A DNA stretch of 64,000 nucleotides from Deinococcus sp. (GTDB lineage Bacteria; Deinococcota; Deinococci; Deinococcales; Deinococcaceae): contig OZ253376.1 in the NCBI GenBank assembly GCA_965261005.1, positions 1 to 64,000 on the forward strand, given 5' to 3'. Position numbers: made by a program. Shown piece after piece: positions 14,001-26,000 of this stretch (positions are counted from its first letter, which is position 1; every line of letters begins with the position of its first letter).

Positions 14001-17000
14001 TCCCGATTGGGAAGGTTGAGCGGGACAGCCGGGGGCGGAGCGAGAATGTAGATATCAGCGCTGATTGGCACGGTCTGTCAGAGGTAAATGTCACGTCACG
14101 GCGCGGTACGCGGTTCCGCAAAGGATCGGGAATTAGGAATCTGGTACGCTTCTCAAAAACTCCGTCCACCGATCAGCAACGAGCGCTGGGGGCCTATTTC
14201 TCGCTAGGTACGCGCGGATCGGTTGCCACCGTCCACTGACCGAACAGCGTCAGACCACACGATTTGGCCAAGGCAACAGAGGCATGATTGTCGAGCTGGC
14301 AACGGCCCAAGGAGGACTGGCAGCCGGAACCGAACGGACCGCTGGCGCTCGCCGTGGACCTTGGCTTCAAAACGTATTGGGGCGGGCTGGAAGCGCAGCT
14401 CCGGGACGAGTTCAACAGCGTCAACGACCTCTTGAAGCGCAAGGAGCTGCCGGACGTGCGGCTTGATGGCGGACGGCTGCACGTCGCGGCTCTTGCGGCG
14501 GGCGTGCCCAGGGCGGCCGACGAACTCGGCGACCGACTGTACGCGCTCGTTCCCCGCATCAAGATTACGAGGCTACTGCTGGAGGTGGCCACCTGGACGG
14601 GTTTCGACCGGACCTTTACCCACCTGCGCGACGACACGCCGCCCGAAAACCGGTGTGGCGTGCTCACTGTGGTGCTGGCCGACGCCATCAACCTCGGCAT
14701 CACTGGCATGGCGGCCACCACACCGGGATACAGCGAGCGGCAGCTGGCCTGGCTCGCCGAGTGGTATGTGCGCGACGATACCTACCGCGCCGCGCTGGCC
14801 GCCATCGTCAATTTCCAGACCCGGCTGCCCCTGGCCCGTCTGTGGGGCGACGGCACGACCAGCAGTTCCGACGAACAGCGTTACCGGACGGGAGCGCACG
14901 GCCGCTCGACCGGCACGGTGAATGCTCGTTACGGCAACGAGCCGGGCATGACGTTCTACACCCACCTTGGCGACCAGTACACGCCCTTCCACACCAAGGT
15001 GAGTGCCACGAACGCGCGCGACGCCACCCACGTGCTGGACGGCCTGCTGTACCACGAAACCGATCTCGATATCGAGGAACGCTCGACCGATACACATGGC
15101 TACGCTGACCACGTATTCGGGATGATGCCGTTGCTGGGCTTCCGCTTCGCGCCGCGCATTCGTGACCTCGCCGACTTGCGGCTGTACACCCCCGGCAAGA
15201 TCGGGCCGTGGCAAGAACTAGAGGCGTTGGTGGGCGGCAAGCTGAACACCCGACTGGTCGAGGTGAACTGGGATGAGGTGCTGCGCCTTGCGGCCAGCAT
15301 CCGGGCAGGCACCTGTACAGCGTCCCTGATGCTGGGAAAGCTCGGCTCGTACGCGCGGCGCAGCAGTCTGGCCAACGCATTGCGCGAACTCGGCCGGGCA
15401 CAGCGCACGCTGTTCACGCTGGCGTGGTTGCAAAGCCCGGAGCTGCGCCGCCGGGTGCTGCGTGGCCTGAACAAGGGCGAGTCGCCGAACTCGCTCAAGC
15501 GGGCGGTGTTCTTCCGCCGTGGCGGCGAGGTACGTGACCGGCGGCTGGAGGCGCAGGCGCACCGGGCGAGCGGGCTGAACCTCGTGGCGGCGGCCATCAG
15601 TGCCTGGAACACTGCGCAGCTCGGACAGGTGGTGGAGAGGTTGCGCGAACACGGCGAGGACGTGCCGGACGAACTGCTCGCGCACGTCTCGCCCTTGCGC
15701 TGGGGCCGGATTGGTTTAACCGGCGACTACGTCTGGCCGGAGCAGCCGTGATGATCTTGCACAATGGGGTGTTTGCGCAACCTTAGCCTACGAAGACGTC
15801 CTGCTCGTGTCGGCTCCCCAGGTGGGGGAAGCGTCCCGGCACCCTCTACATTCGCTTTGCCCACGAAATGAACGGGTCTTGGGAGCCGTGGGCCGTGAAC
15901 ACGAACAACGACCAAGACTTCACCACCGCCTGGAAGCGCTACCGCAACATCCAAAAAGACGTCTTTCCCAAGGCCAAGCTGGTCTTCAGCGTCAACCGCA
16001 ACTCGGTCGGTTTGGGAATGGACTGGCGCAAGATCTTTCCCAGCAAAGATAACGTGGACGTCATGAGCGTGGACTACTGCAACAACCCGGTGGGGCCGGT
16101 GTGTTCCCAAAGCGATTGGGACGCCTCCATGTCGCAGACCGACGAATACGGCGTGCCCATCGGCCTGGAGCAGCACCGCAAGTTCGCCGACAGCGTGGGG
16201 CTGCCGCTGGCCATCTCCGAATGGTCGGGGAACGCCGCATAGACCGGCGACGCGCCCGCCTTTTTCGAAGGTGCCCAACGCGCACCAACTCTTCAAAGTT
16301 CAGCGCAAGAGACGGGACAACGCCCCCAGCAGCGACAAAGCCGGCGCCGGCCACACGCCCAGCAGCAGCGTCCCAAGGGTCGTCAGGCCCAGCGCCCAGG
16401 GATAGCCGGGCTGCTGGTGCAGCTTGGTCTCCCCTTCCGGCGCGCGCAGGTACATCTCCACGATGGGGCGCAGGTAGTAGGAGAGGCCGAGCAGCATGTT
16501 GAGGGCGGCGAGGACGGCCAGCCAGGTCAGCCCGCCAGCCAGGGCCACCTGAAGCAGCAGTACCTTGCCCAGAAAGCCGGCCAGCGGGGGAATGCCGGCC
16601 AGCGACAGCAGCGCGAGCGACAGCAGCGCGGCGGTGCCGGGGGCGGTTCTGGACAGGCCGCGCAAATCGCTCAGGGCGCCCGGCCCGCGCGTCCGCTCAA
16701 TCTGCGCGGTCACCGCGAAGGCGGCCAAGTTCATACAGGTGTAGGCGGCCAGGTAGTAGCCCGCCGCCGCCAAGGCGCCCTCCACCCGGCCGGCCACCGC
16801 CACGGCGATCAGGATGTAGCCCGCCTGCGCGATGCTGGAGTAGGCCAGCAGCCGCTTGAGGCCGCTTTGGCGCAGGGCCGCCAGGTTGCCCAGCAGCATG
16901 GTAACGGCGGCGAGGACGGCGATCAGCACCGGCCAGCCCGCCAGCCCGCCCGGAAACGCGGAGAGCAGCAAACGCAGCAGCCCCGCGAAGCCCGCGATCT

Positions 17001-23000: not shown

Positions 23001-26000
23001 CCCAGATCAGAGCCGATCAGGCGCGGGCCGAAGGGCAGCACGGCCGCCGCCAGCGTCACGCCGAACAGGGCGCTGAGGGGGCCGGCCGGGTACAGCCAGC
23101 GGTCGGCGTGCGGCAGGGCCACATCCTCGCGGGGGGTGTGGCCGACGGGCGGCGAAAGGGCCAGCTCCAGCCAGAGGGTCAGCGCCACGCCGACGGCCAA
23201 AGTCAGCAGCGTGAACAGCGCCCCGCCCCAACTGTTCAGCACTACTCCCACTCTAGCCCGCCCATACGCCAGGCGTAGGCCAGCCCGGCCAGCAAAATGG
23301 CGATAAAGACCAGCATGTCGAAAAAGGCTTCCAGGCCGATGCCCCGGAACACGACCGCCCACGGGTACATGAAGATCATCTCCATGTCAAAGGCGAGAAA
23401 GATCAGCGCGAAGGTGGGGTAGCCGAAGCGGTATTGCTTCCAGGCGGCGGGCAGCTCGAGTTTCTTGACCTTGGGCCGCCACACGGCGACCAGCAAGAGG
23501 GCCAGCCCCAGCATGAGCAGGGCGGCCAAGCCGACGGCGGCGTACATGCTGACGATCATGCAAGACCTCGTAGGACGCGAAGCTTATGTTTTTTCAGGTG
23601 TACTTGAAGACTTCCATCAGCTCGTCCACGATCTCCTGCTCGTCGCCGCGTGCGCTGGCGGTGGCGACGTGCGCCTCCAAATGGCCGCGCAGCACCACGC
23701 CGGCCGCTCCCGTGAGGGCGCCCTGCACGGCCTTGAGCTGGCGCAACACGTCCACGCAGTAGGCGTGCGGGTCTTCGAGCTGGCGCTGAATGCTCTCCAG
23801 GTGGCCCCGCGCGATGGCGAGGCGTCGGGCCGCCTTTTTGCGGGCGTCCTCGGGCATGCAGAGGTGGTGTTCTCCGGCGGCGGCCGTCTCACCCTCCATT
23901 ACAGGTGGGCGATTCGCGCGCTGTACCCCTCTTCCGCCACGGCGTTGATGAGTTGCTGGGGGTCGAGATTGCCCTCTACGACGGCCTTGCCGCTTTTCAA
24001 ATCCACTTGGGCGTCCGTCACGCCGGGCACGCTCCTCAGGGCCTTGGTCACGGCAGTTTGGCAGTGGCCGCAGGTCATGCCGGAAACGTCGAGTTCGGTT
24101 GTATTCATGGGTCTTCCTCCGAAGGCAAATCTACACCCACCCTGGGAGGAGTCAGCATAAATTGTGCCAGATGACTTCCTTAACGAGCTTTTCATTCTCC
24201 ATTTTGCCATCCACCCGGGGGGGAATGGGATAAACGTTGCGCCCGCACCTCCACGTTCGAGCGCGGCCCCGTGGCCGGCTGGACGCTGATCCTAAGCCCG
24301 ACCCCGGAAGGCGAGGTGCGGCAGCTCGGCTGAGCAAGAACCCATAAACCGGGTACCACGCTTGCTCCTCGTGACGTGTGGTCCCTACAGGCGCCAGAAG
24401 AATTCTTTTGAACGTGGGCCACGGCCGAGACCAGGTCGGCCGTGGTCACGAAGTACGCCGCCTACGGCAAACGGTAGGCATAGACAGCACCTTGGCCCAT
24501 GCCGAACTTGCTGGGCAGGCCGGCGCTGAAGTACAGCGTGTTGCCCACCACGCTGAGCGGCGCGCTGATCGAGCCGTGCGCCGAGCTGGTCCACACCTTT
24601 TGCCCGTCCGAGGCGCGGTAGCCGCGAATCTTGCCGTCGAGCGTCCCCACCAGGTACACATCGTTCGAGAGAAAGCCCGCCGTGGTCGTTCCCGCCGGCT
24701 GCGCCTTGAGGTCGGTCCACTTGGCCGTTCCCGTCGCGGGGTCGAGCGCCTTGATGGTGATGGGGTGCTGCGCGGGGTCGAGGTCATAGTTGTATGAGTT
24801 GTTGCTCCACACGTAGATGGTGGCGTCCGGTCCCACCGCCGCCTCCGCGTGGATGCCGCCGCCCTTGCTTCCGTAACCCACCGCCGTCTTCCAGACCAGC
24901 GCGCCCGTCTGCCTATCGAAGGCCCAGTAAATGCCGCTCTTGGAGCCGCCGCCCACCAATTGTTTCATCTGGCCGTTCACGTTCGCCGTAAACAGCTGCG
25001 GCCCCGCGCCGAAGTCGTAGTCCGGCCCGACCGGCTTGGCGGCCAGCCACAAGTCGTTGTTGAAGGTCTGCGTCACCCACTTGGTTTGGCCGCTGCGGGC
25101 GCCTACCGCGACCATCGCGTCCTCCATCTCGCCCGGCGCGCCGTTGTAGCTGTTGCCGGTCGTGAAGAACAGGGTGTCGCTGGCGGGGTCGAGGGCGAAG
25201 GAACTCCACATCGAGGTGCCGTTCTTGTCAGGGGTGGTCAGGTACTTTTCCCAGACGGTATTTCCCGTGCTGGTGTTGAGGGCCACCACCCGGCCGCGCG
25301 AGGTCGCCGTGTAAGGCTTGCCCATCTTTTCCATCATGCCGGAGATCGGCTCGTCCACCGAGGAGACGCCGATGTACGCCAGGCCGTCGGCCGGGTTGAC
25401 CAGCAGGTGGCTGACGCTGCCGGCGTACTGGTCCTGCGGGGCGAAGTCGGTCTTCCACAGCAGCTTGCCCGTATTCTTGTCGAGGGCGAAGGCGTAGCCC
25501 TCGACGCTGGCGACGATGTAGGCGTTCTCCGTCAGGGCGCCGGTGCCAGCGAAGCCATGCCAAGGCCATTCCTTGACCGGCGTCTCCAGCTTGGTCTTCC
25601 ACAGCTGCTTGCCCGTCTGGGCGTCGAGGGCGTAGGCGTTGCCGGCCCAATCGGCCACGAAAACCTTATTGCCGTCGAGTAAGGGCGTAGCAGAAACCTC
25701 GGCGCCCGGCCTGAAGCTCCAGGCCAGCTGCAAGCGCGACACGTTCTGGGTGTTCAGGGCCGTGCTGTCGCTGGCGTGGTCGTTGACAAACTCGTGGTTC
25801 GGCGCCGTCTGCGCCACGGCGAGCGGCGCAGTCAGCAGGGCCAGGCTGACGAGGTGGGCGGGGGTAAATCGAATGTGCTTCATAACTCCTCCTGAAAGTT
25901 GGTCTGGGGCTGTCTTGTAAACGCCGTCAACCTTCTCGACGTTGGTCTCAGTTCATGCGCCCCTGATTGGGCATCTGCTGAGCGGCGTCCTGGCCGATGC

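What a model noticed while it worked through the whole genome (the two positions that open the first line are those of the whole stretch)
16300..24108. Membrane-arm-only complex I operon (nuoAHJKLMN) fused to a copZ-csoR copper switch on the small replicon
On C2 the genes copZ, csoR, nuoA, nuoH, nuoJ, nuoK, nuoL, an 82-aa ORF, nuoM and nuoN follow each other on one strand with gaps of 0-115 nt and no gene for any peripheral-arm subunit, inside an island of copper genes; the same seven-gene membrane module, in the same order and again without peripheral subunits, occurs in several phyla. I read it as a stand-alone, Mrp-like ion-translocating machine that this Deinococcus switches on with copper through CsoR, for example to export Cu(I) or to restore proton-motive force when copper has damaged the Fe-S arm of normal complex I. 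New would be a function and a regulator for the orphan 'partial nuo operon'.
Evidence so far: Gene table: g03052 CopZ 23899-24108, g03051 CsoR 23594-23899, g03050 NuoA 23242-23559, g03049 H, g03048 J, g03047 K, g03046 L, g03045 (82 aa), g03044 M, g03043 N 16300-17733, all minus strand; the full nuo operon is g00135-g00148. The island also holds CopA g03066, a second CopZ g03065, DUF326, DUF4396. 31 related loci fetched with the NuoH-like protein (51-81% id; Deinococcota, Chloroflexota, Actinomycetota, Proteobacteria, Ignavibacteria/Bacteroidota): A-H-J-K-L-M-N in that order in 30 of 31 (the 31st contig ends after L), the 82-aa ORF in 15, NuoB, C, D, E, F, G in 0 of 31 and NuoI in 1 of 31 within 9 kb; CsoR/CopZ/CopA in 4 of 31. 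NuoA next to CsoR in 127 of 199,903 genomes. A C-tract/G- [...]
(Added by a program. Inside this text positions count along the whole contig: contig position 1 is position 1 of the stretch shown here. "Call 12" and the like, gene names such as g00115 and contig names such as C1 are that model's own, and its searches are not shown. The text may have been shortened before it was handed on; [...] marks where a part breaks off. The agent that wrote the report below was given it as the finding of a first reader that could run no searches.)

Follow-up and report, generated by a model that had tools for sequence, protein, structure and literature searches.

The report
Copper-linked complex I membrane arm
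Seven genes encode only the membrane half of respiratory complex I, rebuilt with methionine- and histidine-rich metal-binding features and placed behind a copper-sensing switch, so it most likely pumps copper out of the cell using the proton gradient.

Summary
The gene row copZ-csoR-nuoA-H-J-K-L-M-N is real and no peripheral-arm gene lies beside it. The "82-aa ORF" is not a gene. It is the N-terminus of NuoM, cut off by a one-base gap in this assembly; a contig of run X1 has one more base there and the frame then reads 501 aa.

The module belongs to a tight family: 71 loci among 185,579 species genomes, many phyla, also on a conjugative plasmid. It has lost the quinone-site loops of NuoH and NuoA. 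It carries fixed charge changes in NuoL and NuoN.

New here:
- Every NuoJ carries a 38-202 aa Met/His/Asp-rich insertion in the TM3-4 loop.
- Five members have a Pfam heavy-metal-binding domain in NuoJ.
- 30 family-invariant methionines absent from canonical subunits lie in NuoA/H/J/K, against 1 in NuoL/M/N.

Copper genes flank 18 of 31 and 20 of 37 module loci, but 0 of 12 and 0 of 5 canonical nuo operons. A CsoR-type box lies before copZ.

Best reading: a proton-driven Cu(I) exporter, switched on here through CsoR. No transport or transcript data exist for this strain.

The parts
24133..24152 (-). CsoR-type operator candidate (C-tract/G-tract pseudo-palindrome), 25-44 nt upstream of the copZ start
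   Evidence: Read. The motif ACCCACCC-N1-3-GGG occurs in the window only here and in the copZ2/copA intergenic region, but it was derived from these two sites. Similar boxes lie upstream of copZ in L023, L013 and L001.
24154..24183 (-). Possible promoter (TTAAGG, about 17-18 nt, TATGCT), read by eye
   Evidence: Sequence. The consensus scan found no promoter-like site, so this is inference only.
23899..24108 (-). copZ, 69 aa Cu(I) chaperone with an MTCGHC motif
   Evidence: PF00403 HMA at 2e-17; NCBIfam CopZ_AFE_1862 scores 104 bits against a cut-off of 85.
23594..23899 (-). csoR, 101 aa, copper-sensing repressor of the Thermus type (Cys48, His73, His77)
   Evidence: PF02583 at 9e-21. Best solved relative is T. 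thermophilus 3AAI at 2e-27, with Cys and His..His aligned. It is the only CsoR found in the genome by tblastn.
23242..23559 (-). nuoA-like, 105 aa. TM1-2 loop about 11 residues shorter than canonical; D58/E60 kept; 4 family-specific invariant Met
22358..23242 (-). nuoH-like, 294 aa. The conserved TM1-2 loop is deleted, the E-channel Glu (E. coli E157) is Val125, the TM5-6 loop acids are lost, and D92/E182 are gained
21624..22361 (-). nuoJ-like, 245 aa, with 16 family-specific invariant Met; the TM3 Tyr66 is kept
21939..22124 (-). Met/His/Asp-rich insertion in the NuoJ TM3-TM4 loop (residues about 80-141)
   Evidence: Modelled as unstructured at about 103-141 in a low-confidence single-sequence fold.
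21322..21627 (-). nuoK-like, 101 aa; E35 and E73 kept
19355..21325 (-). nuoL-like, 656 aa. TM5 Glu, TM7 Lys, His239 and Lys327 kept; the TM12 Lys is replaced by Glu382; a long C-terminal helix region is present
17735..19239 (-). nuoM-like, one gene of 501 aa once the one-base gap between 19014 and 19015 is read through. The '82-aa ORF' 18991-19239 is its N-terminus
16300..17733 (-). nuoN-like, 477 aa. TM5 Glu is replaced by Gln133 and TM7 Lys by Glu215; the TM8 and TM12 Lys are kept
35298..38185 (.). Second copZ (35298-35501, minus) and copA P1B-ATPase (open frame 35564-38185, plus), with two CsoR-type boxes at 35525-35545 and 35640-35656
27071..33087 (.). Rest of the island: DUF305 protein, OmpR-type response regulator and histidine kinase, DUF326 (Cys-rich) protein, DUF4396 protein
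   Evidence: The same DUF305, DUF326 and two-component genes recur beside the module in Deinococcus and Trueperaceae loci.

Best explanation
The seven nuo-like genes encode a self-contained derivative of the complex I membrane arm. It has no electron-input or quinone module and works in copper (soft-metal) homeostasis. The most likely role is a proton-motive-force-driven Cu(I) exporter, that is, an Mrp-like cation/proton antiporter.

Proposed path (inferred):
1. Cytoplasmic Cu(I), possibly handed over by CopZ, is caught by the flexible Met/His/Asp-rich loop of NuoJ. In complex I that loop sits on the cytoplasmic face, where the peripheral arm docks.
2. The ion passes through the former E-channel formed by NuoA, NuoH, NuoJ and NuoK. 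Here that region is lined with family-specific methionines next to the retained carboxylates.
3. Protons flowing inward through the antiporter-like subunits NuoL/M/N pay for the export.

In this strain the module is the distal part of a copZ-csoR-nuoAHJKLMN transcription unit. Its promoter carries a CsoR-type box, so copper should derepress it (inferred). In the recalled copZ-csoR-copA operon of Thermus (not checked in any call), copA occupies the same place.

Shown: gene content, losses, gains, neighbourhoods and the operator-like sequence. Inferred: the substrate, the direction, the coupling and the regulation.
For: (1) No redox arm. No NuoB, C, D, E, F, G or I lies beside the module here or in 30 of 31 first relatives. 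NuoH lacks the conserved TM1-2 loop. In 29-30 of 30 family members it also lacks the Glu/Asp residues that are invariant in 7 of 7 canonical copies. The NuoA loop is shortened.

(2) The pump parts are kept. NuoL, M and N retain TM5 Glu / TM7 Lys / TM8 Lys / TM12 residues, apart from fixed family changes: NuoL TM12 K to E in 27 of 28; NuoN TM5 E to Q and TM7 K to E in 28 of 29 each. NuoK E35/E73, NuoA D58/E60 and NuoJ Y66 are invariant.

(3) Metal-binding features sit in the proteins.
- All 26 full-length NuoJ sequences measured have a loop of 38-202 aa with 16-32% Met+His and about 20% Asp+Glu.
- A Pfam HMBD domain sits in that loop or at the NuoJ C-terminus in L006, L203 (three copies), L205 and L206, and by tblastn in L146.
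- Invariant Met columns that are Met in at most one canonical copy number 4, 6, 16 and 4 in NuoA, H, J and K, against 0, 1 and 0 in NuoL, M and N.
- The first 85 residues of NuoJ hold 9-14 Met in 27 family members, against 1-6 in 9 canonical NuoJ, some from the same host genomes.

(4) Neighbourhood. Copper-specific families (CsoR, HMA/P1B-ATPase, CopC/CopD, CopB, multicopper oxidase, HMBD, YHS, DUF326, SCO1, cupredoxin) lie within 10 kb of 18 of 31 loci. A protein panel hits 20 of 37 further loci, 0 of 12 canonical nuo loci from the same fetch, and 0 of 5 canonical operons +-20 kb in three of the host genomes. In L026 the module lies between copA(MCO)-copB and cusCBA. On the conjugative plasmid pBAL398.3 it lies in a metal-efflux region.

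(5) Regulation. The CsoR is of the T. thermophilus type with aligned Cys/His/His. It is the only CsoR in the genome. CsoR-type boxes lie before copZ and in the copZ2/copA region. The csoR-nuoA gap is 34 nt, with no terminator-like site listed there.

(6) Print. In Marinobacter atlanticus a complex I-like cassette lies inside a copper resistance operon and is co-expressed with copper genes (PMC8233155, passages read). I did not verify that it belongs to this family.
Against: - There is no transport, binding or expression datum for this strain or for any verified family member; no RNA run was listed.
- 13 of the 31 first loci and 17 of the 37 later loci show no copper gene nearby. Some of these contigs are short.
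- Some neighbours point to other metals or to nothing specific: a CDF gene, ZnuABC, ArsR, DmeF and RcnR-like genes on the plasmid. The RND pumps next to the Bacteroidota loci score as multidrug type.
- A c-type cytochrome directly follows nuoN in 8 Bacteroidota/Ignavibacteria loci, which a pure antiporter does not need.
- The cytoplasmic location of the NuoJ loop rests on homology to complex I (PMC10212512 passages) and on recalled topology work. It is not a test on this protein.
- I could not inspect 3-D coordinates, so a continuous methionine path is not shown.
- Methionine enrichment could serve another role, such as oxidant scavenging or sensing.
- CsoR boxes do not precede nuoA in L001 or L002, so CsoR control is local to a few genomes.
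Confidence: 0.5

Rival explanations
1. It is a redox-free Mrp-like antiporter for ordinary cations (Na+, K+ or H+ balance). It travels with metal-resistance islands as general ion and pH support under metal stress. On this reading the NuoJ loop only senses or gates in response to metal.
For: The antiporter-like subunits and carboxylates are retained. The marine actinomycete 'partial nuo operon' has been read as a salt-adaptation pump (PMC6676996 passage). Na+/H+ exchanger genes lie near L022 and L025. 13 of the 31 first loci lack copper genes.
Against: Thirty family-specific invariant methionines are concentrated in NuoA/H/J/K. HMBD domains are fused to NuoJ in five members. Neither is needed for Na+ or K+. 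Neighbourhood enrichment is for copper genes, with canonical operons as negative controls.
Confidence: 0.15
2. It moves or handles copper in another way. It could import copper for cuproenzyme assembly. Or it could be a pump energised by periplasmic copper or cytochrome c redox chemistry, as the Marinobacter authors suggested for their cassette.
For: A c-type cytochrome gene directly follows nuoN in 8 Bacteroidota/Ignavibacteria loci and precedes nuoA in L026. SCO1, CtaG, a cbb3-type oxidase and a cupredoxin lie near L028 and L011. The authors' proposal is in PMC8233155.
Against: CsoR-type control here, and the placement among CopA, CopB, Cus and multicopper oxidase resistance genes, fit export under copper excess. 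No haem- or cluster-binding motif was seen in the seven subunits: no invariant Cys or His in NuoA/H/J/K. Most loci have no cytochrome gene.
Confidence: 0.12
3. It is a spare membrane arm that docks the peripheral arm (NuoB-G, I) of the canonical operon under copper stress.
For: All 4 host genomes that gave a clear answer also hold canonical nuo genes (the fifth, an incomplete assembly, showed only the module copy and a weak match). Gene order mirrors complex I.
Against: The docking and quinone-site elements are gone. The NuoH TM1-2 loop is deleted, the TM5-6 loop acids are lost in 30 of 30, and the NuoA loop is shortened and lacks its conserved motif. A 38-202 aa insertion occupies the interface loop of NuoJ.
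Confidence: 0.04
4. It is a decaying, non-functional relic in this genome.
For: The deposited sequence has a frameshift in nuoM. A truncated Tn3 transposase lies next to nuoN.
Against: The contig of run X1 carries the missing base and the read-through frame is intact. All other genes are open. The family is 51-91% conserved across phyla, with many invariant residues.
Confidence: 0.04

Closest known systems
Respiratory complex I (NDH-1, NuoA-N), membrane arm
   Same: Homologues of NuoA, H, J, K, L, M and N lie in the complex I gene order. The best solved relatives are complex I and NDH-1 subunits: T. thermophilus Nqo12 at 285 bits, E. coli NuoH at 120 bits, cyanobacterial NdhB at 236 bits. The lateral-helix region of NuoL, the central-axis Lys/Glu residues, the NuoK glutamates and the NuoJ TM3 Tyr are kept.
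   Different: No NuoB, C, D, E, F, G or I. The quinone-site loops of NuoH and NuoA are lost. Fixed charge changes occur in NuoL TM12 and NuoN TM5/TM7. The NuoJ loop is Met/His-rich, and 30 family-specific methionines lie in NuoA/H/J/K. Identity to the genome's own complex I is 27-42%.
Mrp (MrpA-G) multisubunit cation/proton antiporters
   Same: A redox-free assembly of antiporter-like subunits with small membrane subunits. The proposed logic is the same: proton influx pays for cation export. MrpA is a weaker but clear relative of the NuoL-like subunit (200 bits).
   Different: The subunit set is that of complex I (NuoH and NuoA homologues are present; no match better than Nuo to Mrp models). 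The proposed substrate is a soft metal, not Na+ or K+.
Published 'membrane-arm-only' nuo clusters
   Same: Peripheral-arm-less nuo gene rows have been noted in print. Examples are Nitrosococcus oceani NuoAHJKLLMN (transcribed and co-regulated; PMC3772326, table and passages), marine actinomycete nuoA-hyp-HJKLMN (PMC6676996 passage), and the Marinobacter atlanticus cassette inside a copper operon (PMC8233155 passages).
   Different: None of these papers, in the passages I read, proposes copper export through the module or describes the NuoJ loop, the HMBD fusions or the methionine pattern. I did not verify that those clusters belong to the tight family defined here. L203 and L205, more distant members with a NuoD-like gene between nuoA and nuoH, resemble the Marinobacter and actinomycete layouts.
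copZ-csoR-copA operon of Thermus thermophilus and its CsoR (PDB 3AAI)
   Same: The CsoR here is the closest sequence relative of 3AAI (2e-27), with the same Cys/His/His positions. The order copZ-csoR, followed by the effector gene(s), matches the Thermus operon. That operon order is recalled, not checked in any call.
   Different: The gene(s) behind csoR are the seven nuo-like genes, not copA. copA lies 11 kb away with its own copZ and its own CsoR-type boxes.
Methionine-based Cu(I)/Ag(I) transporters (CusA, Ctr1) and Met/His-rich copper proteins (CopB, PcoA/CopA)
   Same: Methionine thioethers in membrane helices, and Met/His repeat motifs of the MDHxxM kind in flexible regions. This resemblance is recalled, not tested here.
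   Different: There is no sequence relationship. The resemblance is compositional only.

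Membership tests
Respiratory complex I (NDH-1) | Quinone-reducing module NuoB/NuoD (plus NuoC, NuoI) encoded with or recruited to the membrane arm | tested here: not met
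   No NuoB-G or NuoI lies beside the module in the window or in 30 of 31 relatives. The only copies in the genome lie in the C1 operon.
Respiratory complex I (NDH-1) | NuoH TM1-2 loop and TM5-6 loop acidic residues, and the NuoA TM1-2 loop, which build the quinone cavity | tested here: not met
   The loop is deleted. The residues equivalent to E. coli E157, D213, E216 and E228 are replaced in 29-30 of 30 members while invariant in 7 of 7 canonical copies. The NuoA loop is about 11 residues shorter.
Respiratory complex I (NDH-1) | Seven membrane subunits A, H, J, K, L, M, N with central-axis Lys/Glu | tested here: met
   All seven are present with Pfam/NCBIfam Nuo matches. Most key residues are kept, with three fixed family substitutions.
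Mrp cation/proton antiporter | MrpA-G subunit set (MrpA with its C-terminal domain, MrpB, C, D, E, F, G) | tested here: not met
   In NCBIfam the Nuo models outscore the Mrp models for L, M, N and K. NuoH and NuoA homologues are present, and no MrpB/E/F/G-type match was found.
Mrp cation/proton antiporter | Works without a redox module, exchanging a cation for protons | not testable with these tools
   Absence of a redox module is shown. The exchange activity is inferred.
CsoR copper-sensing repressors | PF02583 fold with Cu(I) ligands (Cys, His, and Cys or His) | tested here: met
   PF02583 at 9e-21. Cys48, His73 and His77 align with the Cys/His/His of T. thermophilus CsoR 3AAI and with the Cys/His/Cys of the M. 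tuberculosis protein 2HH7.
CsoR copper-sensing repressors | GC-rich pseudo-palindromic operator overlapping the promoter of the regulated operon | tested here: inconclusive
   A C-tract/G-tract box lies at 24133-24152. Related boxes lie at copZ2/copA and before copZ in L023, L013 and L001. The search motif was derived from the sites themselves, and no binding data exist.
CopZ metallochaperones | HMA fold with a CxxC motif | tested here: met
   PF00403; NCBIfam CopZ model above its cut-off; MTCGHC motif present.

The most novel reading that the evidence does not exclude
This family is the first heavy-metal transporter built on the complex I / Mrp scaffold. It would be a proton-driven Cu(I) (and perhaps Ag(I)) exporter in which the former E-channel of NuoA/H/J/K has become a thioether-lined metal path. 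A disordered Met/His (or HMBD) capture loop on NuoJ would feed it, and it spreads on plasmids and islands as a copper-resistance determinant. It would also be a natural 'arm-less' complex I for studying how the antiporter-like subunits couple to an ion site without any redox chemistry.
Probability: 0.4. Interest if true: 0.85.

Novelty: new variant of a known kind. Interest (0 to 1): 0.75.

Why it matters
If the reading is right, bacteria own a class of copper-resistance pump that current annotation hides as "NADH-quinone oxidoreductase subunits". Metal-resistance surveys would miss it, and respiratory gene counts would be inflated.

For bioenergetics it offers a minimal, redox-free relative of complex I. 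It has the same L/M/N pumps, a re-purposed E-channel and three fixed charge swaps. That makes the long-debated coupling between the E-channel and the antiporter-like subunits testable with an ion substrate in place of quinone chemistry.

For this genome, the practical result is that the operon is intact and the 82-aa gene call should be merged into nuoM.

Tried and rejected
- RNA evidence: no RNA holder was listed for the stretch. The two runs laid are contigs, so they say nothing on expression.
- Rfam scan of the whole window at gathering thresholds: 0 matches.
- Consensus promoter scan of 15600-24600: 0 sites. Terminator-like sites: 8 found against 8.1 expected, so uninformative.
I read the region by eye and with regular expressions instead.
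- A single-sequence AlphaFold2 model of NuoJ was poor (mean pLDDT 57, pTM 0.28). I use only its helix/loop outline, as weak support.
- Search of 401 Actinomycetota genomes with the NuoH-like profile: only the centre genome scored high (461 bits) and the next best scored 202 bits. This did not show whether the marine actinomycete partial nuo operons are the same family.
- RND pumps beside the Bacteroidota/Ignavibacteria loci match multidrug models better than CusA/CzcA, so I did not count them as copper genes.
- The two-component system in the island matches generic OmpR/PhoR-type models better than heavy-metal ones, so it is not counted either.
- A CsoR box upstream of nuoA in loci where csoR is not adjacent: none in L001, L002, L004, L005, L007, L015, L016 or L028. 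L001 instead has two tandem 17-mers before nuoA (not followed).
- The ORFs 15727-16296 (minus) and 15787-16242 (plus) downstream of nuoN have no family match. The first looks like an antisense shadow.
- The idea that the module regenerates proton-motive force on its own was rejected, because no energy-input domain is present.
- Literature: searches for nuoAHJKLMN; partial nuo / nuo-partial; CsoR+Nuo+copper; complex I-like + membrane arm + Mrp; DUF305+nuo+copper resistance; Deinococcus+CsoR+copper+CopZ+nuo; complex I-like + copper resistance. These gave only the Marinobacter paper as a printed link between such a cassette and copper.

Full report
**What is there**

The minus strand of window 16300-24108 carries copZ, csoR and seven nuo-like genes in the order A-H-J-K-L-M-N. 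Junctions overlap by 1-4 nt or leave gaps of 1, 34 (csoR-nuoA) and 115 nt (nuoL-nuoM). The window is the start of the 311-kb second contig of a two-contig genome. The complete nuoA-N operon lies on the large contig and is 27-42% identical to the module, so the module is an old paralogue and not a recent copy. No NuoB, C, D, E, F, G or I homologue lies beside the module. The surroundings are a copper island: a DUF305 protein, a two-component system, DUF326 and DUF4396 proteins, a second copZ and copA. A PQQ-type beta-propeller gene and a rhodopsin gene lie directly upstream of copZ, and a truncated Tn3 transposase lies downstream of nuoN.

**The 82-aa ORF is an artefact**

It matches positions 1-75 of the NuoM models, and the next ORF, in another frame, matches positions 76-482. 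In relatives the two parts are one ORF of 485-500 aa in 25 of the 29 loci that show the N-terminal part. The four exceptions are L026, which gives 486 aa and only failed my coordinate check, and three MAG contigs that also have breaks in other genes. A 13,885-nt contig of run X1 covers 15700-24097 with no other difference and has one extra base behind + strand position 19014 (depth 45.3 of 53.8). With N placed at that point, nuoM reads 501 aa without a stop and aligns in one piece to the L001 NuoM at 82%. X1 may be the sample the assembly came from, so this is a second assembly of the strain and not an independent strain. The likeliest cause is a consensus error in the deposited sequence.

**A distinct family, not a variant operon**

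A profile search returned 333 relatives, of which the best 80 were kept. Family members at 51% identity or more are separated by a clear gap from canonical NuoH at 32% or less. A search with the NuoJ TM1-3 signature found 71 loci among 185,579 species genomes. They come from:
- Deinococcota, Chloroflexota and Actinomycetota;
- Alpha-, Beta- and Gammaproteobacteria and delta-type MAGs;
- Bacteroidota/Ignavibacteria and Verrucomicrobiota;
- a cyanobacterium, Acidobacteriota, Vulcanimicrobiota, Calditrichia and Gemmatimonadota.

Many cultured Methylobacterium and Methylorubrum species carry it. Copies also lie on plasmids: 3 of 72,556 plasmid records match. One is the conjugative Rhodopseudomonas plasmid pBAL398.3, where the module sits beside DmeF, two CsoR/RcnR-type repressors, a CusA/CzcA pump and a DUF305 gene. 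High identity across phyla and mobile contexts point to horizontal spread. Four of the five host genomes searched hold one or two canonical NuoJ genes besides the module copy. The fifth, an incomplete assembly, showed only the module copy and a weak match.

**What was lost**

Against E. coli NuoH and seven canonical copies, the NuoH-like subunit lacks the conserved TM1-2 loop. The counterpart of E. coli E157 is Val in 29 of 30 members. The counterparts of D213, E216 and E228 in the TM5-6 loop are non-acidic in 30 of 30. All of these are invariant in 7 of 7 canonical copies. The NuoA TM1-2 loop is about 11 residues shorter and lacks its conserved motif. In complex I these elements build the quinone cavity and the interface with the peripheral arm (PMC10212512, passages read). 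So the module can neither reduce quinone nor easily dock the canonical arm.

**What was kept or changed in the pump**

- NuoM is canonical at the four key positions (26 of 26).
- NuoL keeps the TM5 Glu, TM7 Lys, His239 and Lys327, but has Glu in place of the TM12 Lys in 27 of 28 members (Lys in 7 of 7 canonical copies).
- NuoN has Gln for the TM5 Glu and Glu for the TM7 Lys, each in 28 of 29 members (Glu and Lys in 7 of 7 canonical copies).
- NuoK E35/E73, NuoA D58/E60 and NuoJ Tyr66 are invariant.
- NuoH gains invariant D92 and E182 where canonical copies have Ser and Leu/Ile.

**What was gained: metal-binding features**

Every full-length NuoJ of the family has an insertion in the TM3-TM4 loop, between residues 79 and 142 of the window protein. 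It is 38-202 aa long, with 16-32% Met+His, about 20% Asp+Glu and no Cys. It is flanked by the invariant motifs DPGGxMMAxMxM and GGMDMSM (26 sequences). The window's loop is a short version of 53 aa.

In L006, L203 (three copies), L205 and L206 a Pfam heavy-metal-binding domain (PF19335; E from 6e-12 to 3e-33) sits in that loop or at the NuoJ C-terminus. L146 shows the same by tblastn. The domain occurs at both places, which agrees with a five-helix topology in which the loop and the C-terminus face the same side. By homology that side is the cytoplasm: the ND6/NuoJ TM3-4 loop lies at the peripheral-arm/membrane-arm interface (plus recalled topology work).

Methionine columns conserved in at least 90% of the family, and Met in at most one canonical copy, number 4 in NuoA, 6 in NuoH, 16 in NuoJ and 4 in NuoK. 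In NuoL, M and N they number 0, 1 and 0. NuoJ is 9.3% Met against 3.0% in 15 canonical NuoJ. Its first 85 residues hold 9-14 Met against 1-6. In TM3 the residues Y66, M70, M73 and M77 follow a 4-3-4 spacing, that is, one helix face. Methionines also sit next to the retained carboxylates (NuoA D58-M59-E60-M61; NuoK M32...E35 and E73-M74). NuoJ TM1-3 is the most conserved part of the module, at 74-91% identity across phyla. I could not inspect coordinates, so a continuous path is not shown.

**Neighbourhoods, with controls**

I took 366 non-overlapping flank ORFs of at least 80 aa from the 31 loci and the window. I clustered them into 270 groups and scanned 248 of the 270 representatives against Pfam. 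The 22 left out had been scanned before or overlapped genes already named. Copper-specific families lie within 10 kb of 18 of 31 loci, and the gene sets differ by lineage:
- CsoR, CopZ, DUF326 and DUF305 in Deinococcus and Trueperaceae;
- CopC-CopD, a cupredoxin and a CDF gene in an actinomycete;
- a CopA ATPase in an alphaproteobacterium;
- multicopper oxidase-CopB on one side and CusCBA on the other in a Rhodanobacteraceae MAG;
- HMBD and YHS proteins in Bacteroidota/Ignavibacteria;
- SCO1 in one Trueperaceae locus.

Thirteen loci show none: L006 to L010 except as noted, L015 with DUF305 only, L016, L017, L018, L021, L022, L025 and L029.

A tblastn panel of 22 such proteins plus CopZ and CsoR hit 20 of 37 further, non-duplicate family loci. 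It hit 0 of the 12 canonical nuo operons that the same search had fetched; 7 of those 12 are Pelagibacteraceae, so this is a weak control. As a paired control I fetched +-20 kb around five canonical nuo operons in three of the host genomes. The panel hit 0 of 5, apart from one 23%-identity HlyD-like match, while the module loci of the same three genomes all have copper genes. Loci are not phylogenetically independent (many are Methylobacterium), but at least six unrelated gene sets recur.

**Regulation in this strain**

The CsoR is closest to the T. thermophilus protein 3AAI (2e-27). Cys48, His73 and His77 align to its Cys/His/His and to the Cys/His/Cys of the M. tuberculosis protein. It is the only CsoR found in the genome. 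A C-tract/G-tract pseudo-palindrome lies 25-44 nt upstream of copZ, just after a promoter-like TTAAGG...TATGCT that I read by eye. Two similar boxes lie in the copZ2/copA region, and related boxes precede copZ in L023, L013 and L001. copZ and csoR overlap by one base. csoR and nuoA are 34 nt apart, with no terminator-like site listed there. Read-through from a CsoR-controlled promoter is therefore the simplest reading, but it is inferred.

The arrangement copZ-csoR-nuoA is shared only with L023. L013 has copZ-csoR 2.6 kb upstream. L001, L002 and L003 have csoR downstream on the other strand, and no CsoR box precedes their nuoA. So CsoR control is a local solution. Elsewhere other regulators probably act: two-component systems, ArsR, and in L001 a pair of tandem 17-mers.

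**Print**

Arm-less nuo rows have been noticed before:
- N. oceani 'NuoAHJKLLMN (C I-membrane arm)' is transcribed and co-regulated, and was read as part of forward complex I (PMC3772326, table and passages).
- Marine actinomycetes have nuoA-hyp-HJKLMN, read as a marine-adaptation proton pump (PMC6676996, passage).
- A 'Nuo-Partial' class appears in a genome survey (bioRxiv 10.1101/2025.03.13.643058, passages).
- In Marinobacter atlanticus a complex I-like cassette interrupts a copper resistance operon and is co-expressed with it. The authors suggest energy from copper redox reactions or cofactor replenishment (PMC8233155, passages).

Seven searches found no paper that proposes copper export by such a module or describes the NuoJ features. 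Supplements were not consulted. Two earlier notes of this scan on other genomes reached a similar reading. They are not independent evidence.

**How it most likely works**

A redox-free machine with intact antiporter-like subunits can only run on an ion gradient. The one region that has been rebuilt is the NuoA/H/J/K heel: soft thioether ligands, a cytoplasmic Met/His or HMBD capture loop, two new carboxylates in NuoH, and more acidic central-axis positions in NuoL and NuoN. Together with the copper-resistance neighbourhoods and CsoR control, this points to export of Cu(I), perhaps also Ag(I), in exchange for protons.

I put about 0.5 on a metal-export role and about 0.4 on the specific thioether-channel Cu(I)/H+ antiport mechanism. 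Other metals are not excluded, given the CDF, Znu, DmeF and RcnR-like neighbours. The cytochrome c gene that follows nuoN in Bacteroidota/Ignavibacteria remains unexplained.

Noticed in passing
window 25948-26664 (minus): A bacteriorhodopsin-family gene (PF01036, 1.7e-51) lies beside a secreted PQQ-type beta-propeller gene (24462-25883), directly upstream of copZ. The genome has two more rhodopsin-like genes on C1, at 35% and 27% identity.
   Followed up: no
window 14288-15751 (plus): The C-terminal half of a Tn3-family transposase (profile positions 485-954 of 954) abuts the end of nuoN. The N-terminal half is missing, so it is a transposon remnant at the island's edge. A phage-integrase N-terminal fragment lies at 4518-5390.
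   Followed up: partly
L001:9590-9640: Two tandem 17-mers (GTTGATCCAAAYGCCCG) lie just upstream of the nuoA ribosome-binding site in a Deinococcus MAG that has no CsoR box there. They may be a response-regulator site for the two-component system that accompanies the module in Deinococcus and Trueperaceae loci.
   Followed up: no
L203:7570-9063 and L205:2029-3627: More distant family members (Ardenticatenaceae, Gemmatimonadaceae) encode a roughly 500-aa NuoD-like protein between nuoA and nuoH. Only its last 75 or so residues match the 49-kDa subunit model. It may be an intermediate in the loss of the peripheral arm, and it resembles the published 'nuoADHJKL' and 'nuoA-hyp-nuoH' layouts.
   Followed up: partly
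L019, L020, L024, L027, L029, L030, L031, L018; L026:2285-2962: A c-type cytochrome gene (Cytochrome_CBB3 family) directly follows nuoN in Bacteroidota/Ignavibacteria loci and precedes nuoA in a Rhodanobacteraceae locus. CcmF/NrfE-like haem lyase genes lie nearby in six loci.
   Followed up: no
L008:17669-18472: A gene of the MbnB/TglH/ChrH family (RiPP modification, as in the biosynthesis of copper-chelating peptides) lies directly after nuoN in a Chloroflexia MAG.
   Followed up: no
L017:1730-8900: In one Bacteroidota MAG the module lies directly behind a canonical nuo operon (NuoG C-terminal part, then H, I, J, K, L, M, N).
   Followed up: partly
window 35640-35656: A second, near-perfect C7/G7 palindrome (ATCCCCCCCAGGGGGGT) lies inside the open frame that I listed for copA. 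The true copA start is probably downstream of it.
   Followed up: no
window 7814-8932, 9178-10317, 6300-7463 (minus): Three paralogous genes with paired peptidoglycan-binding domains (PG_binding_1) stand in a row; one also has a GH43 domain.
   Followed up: no
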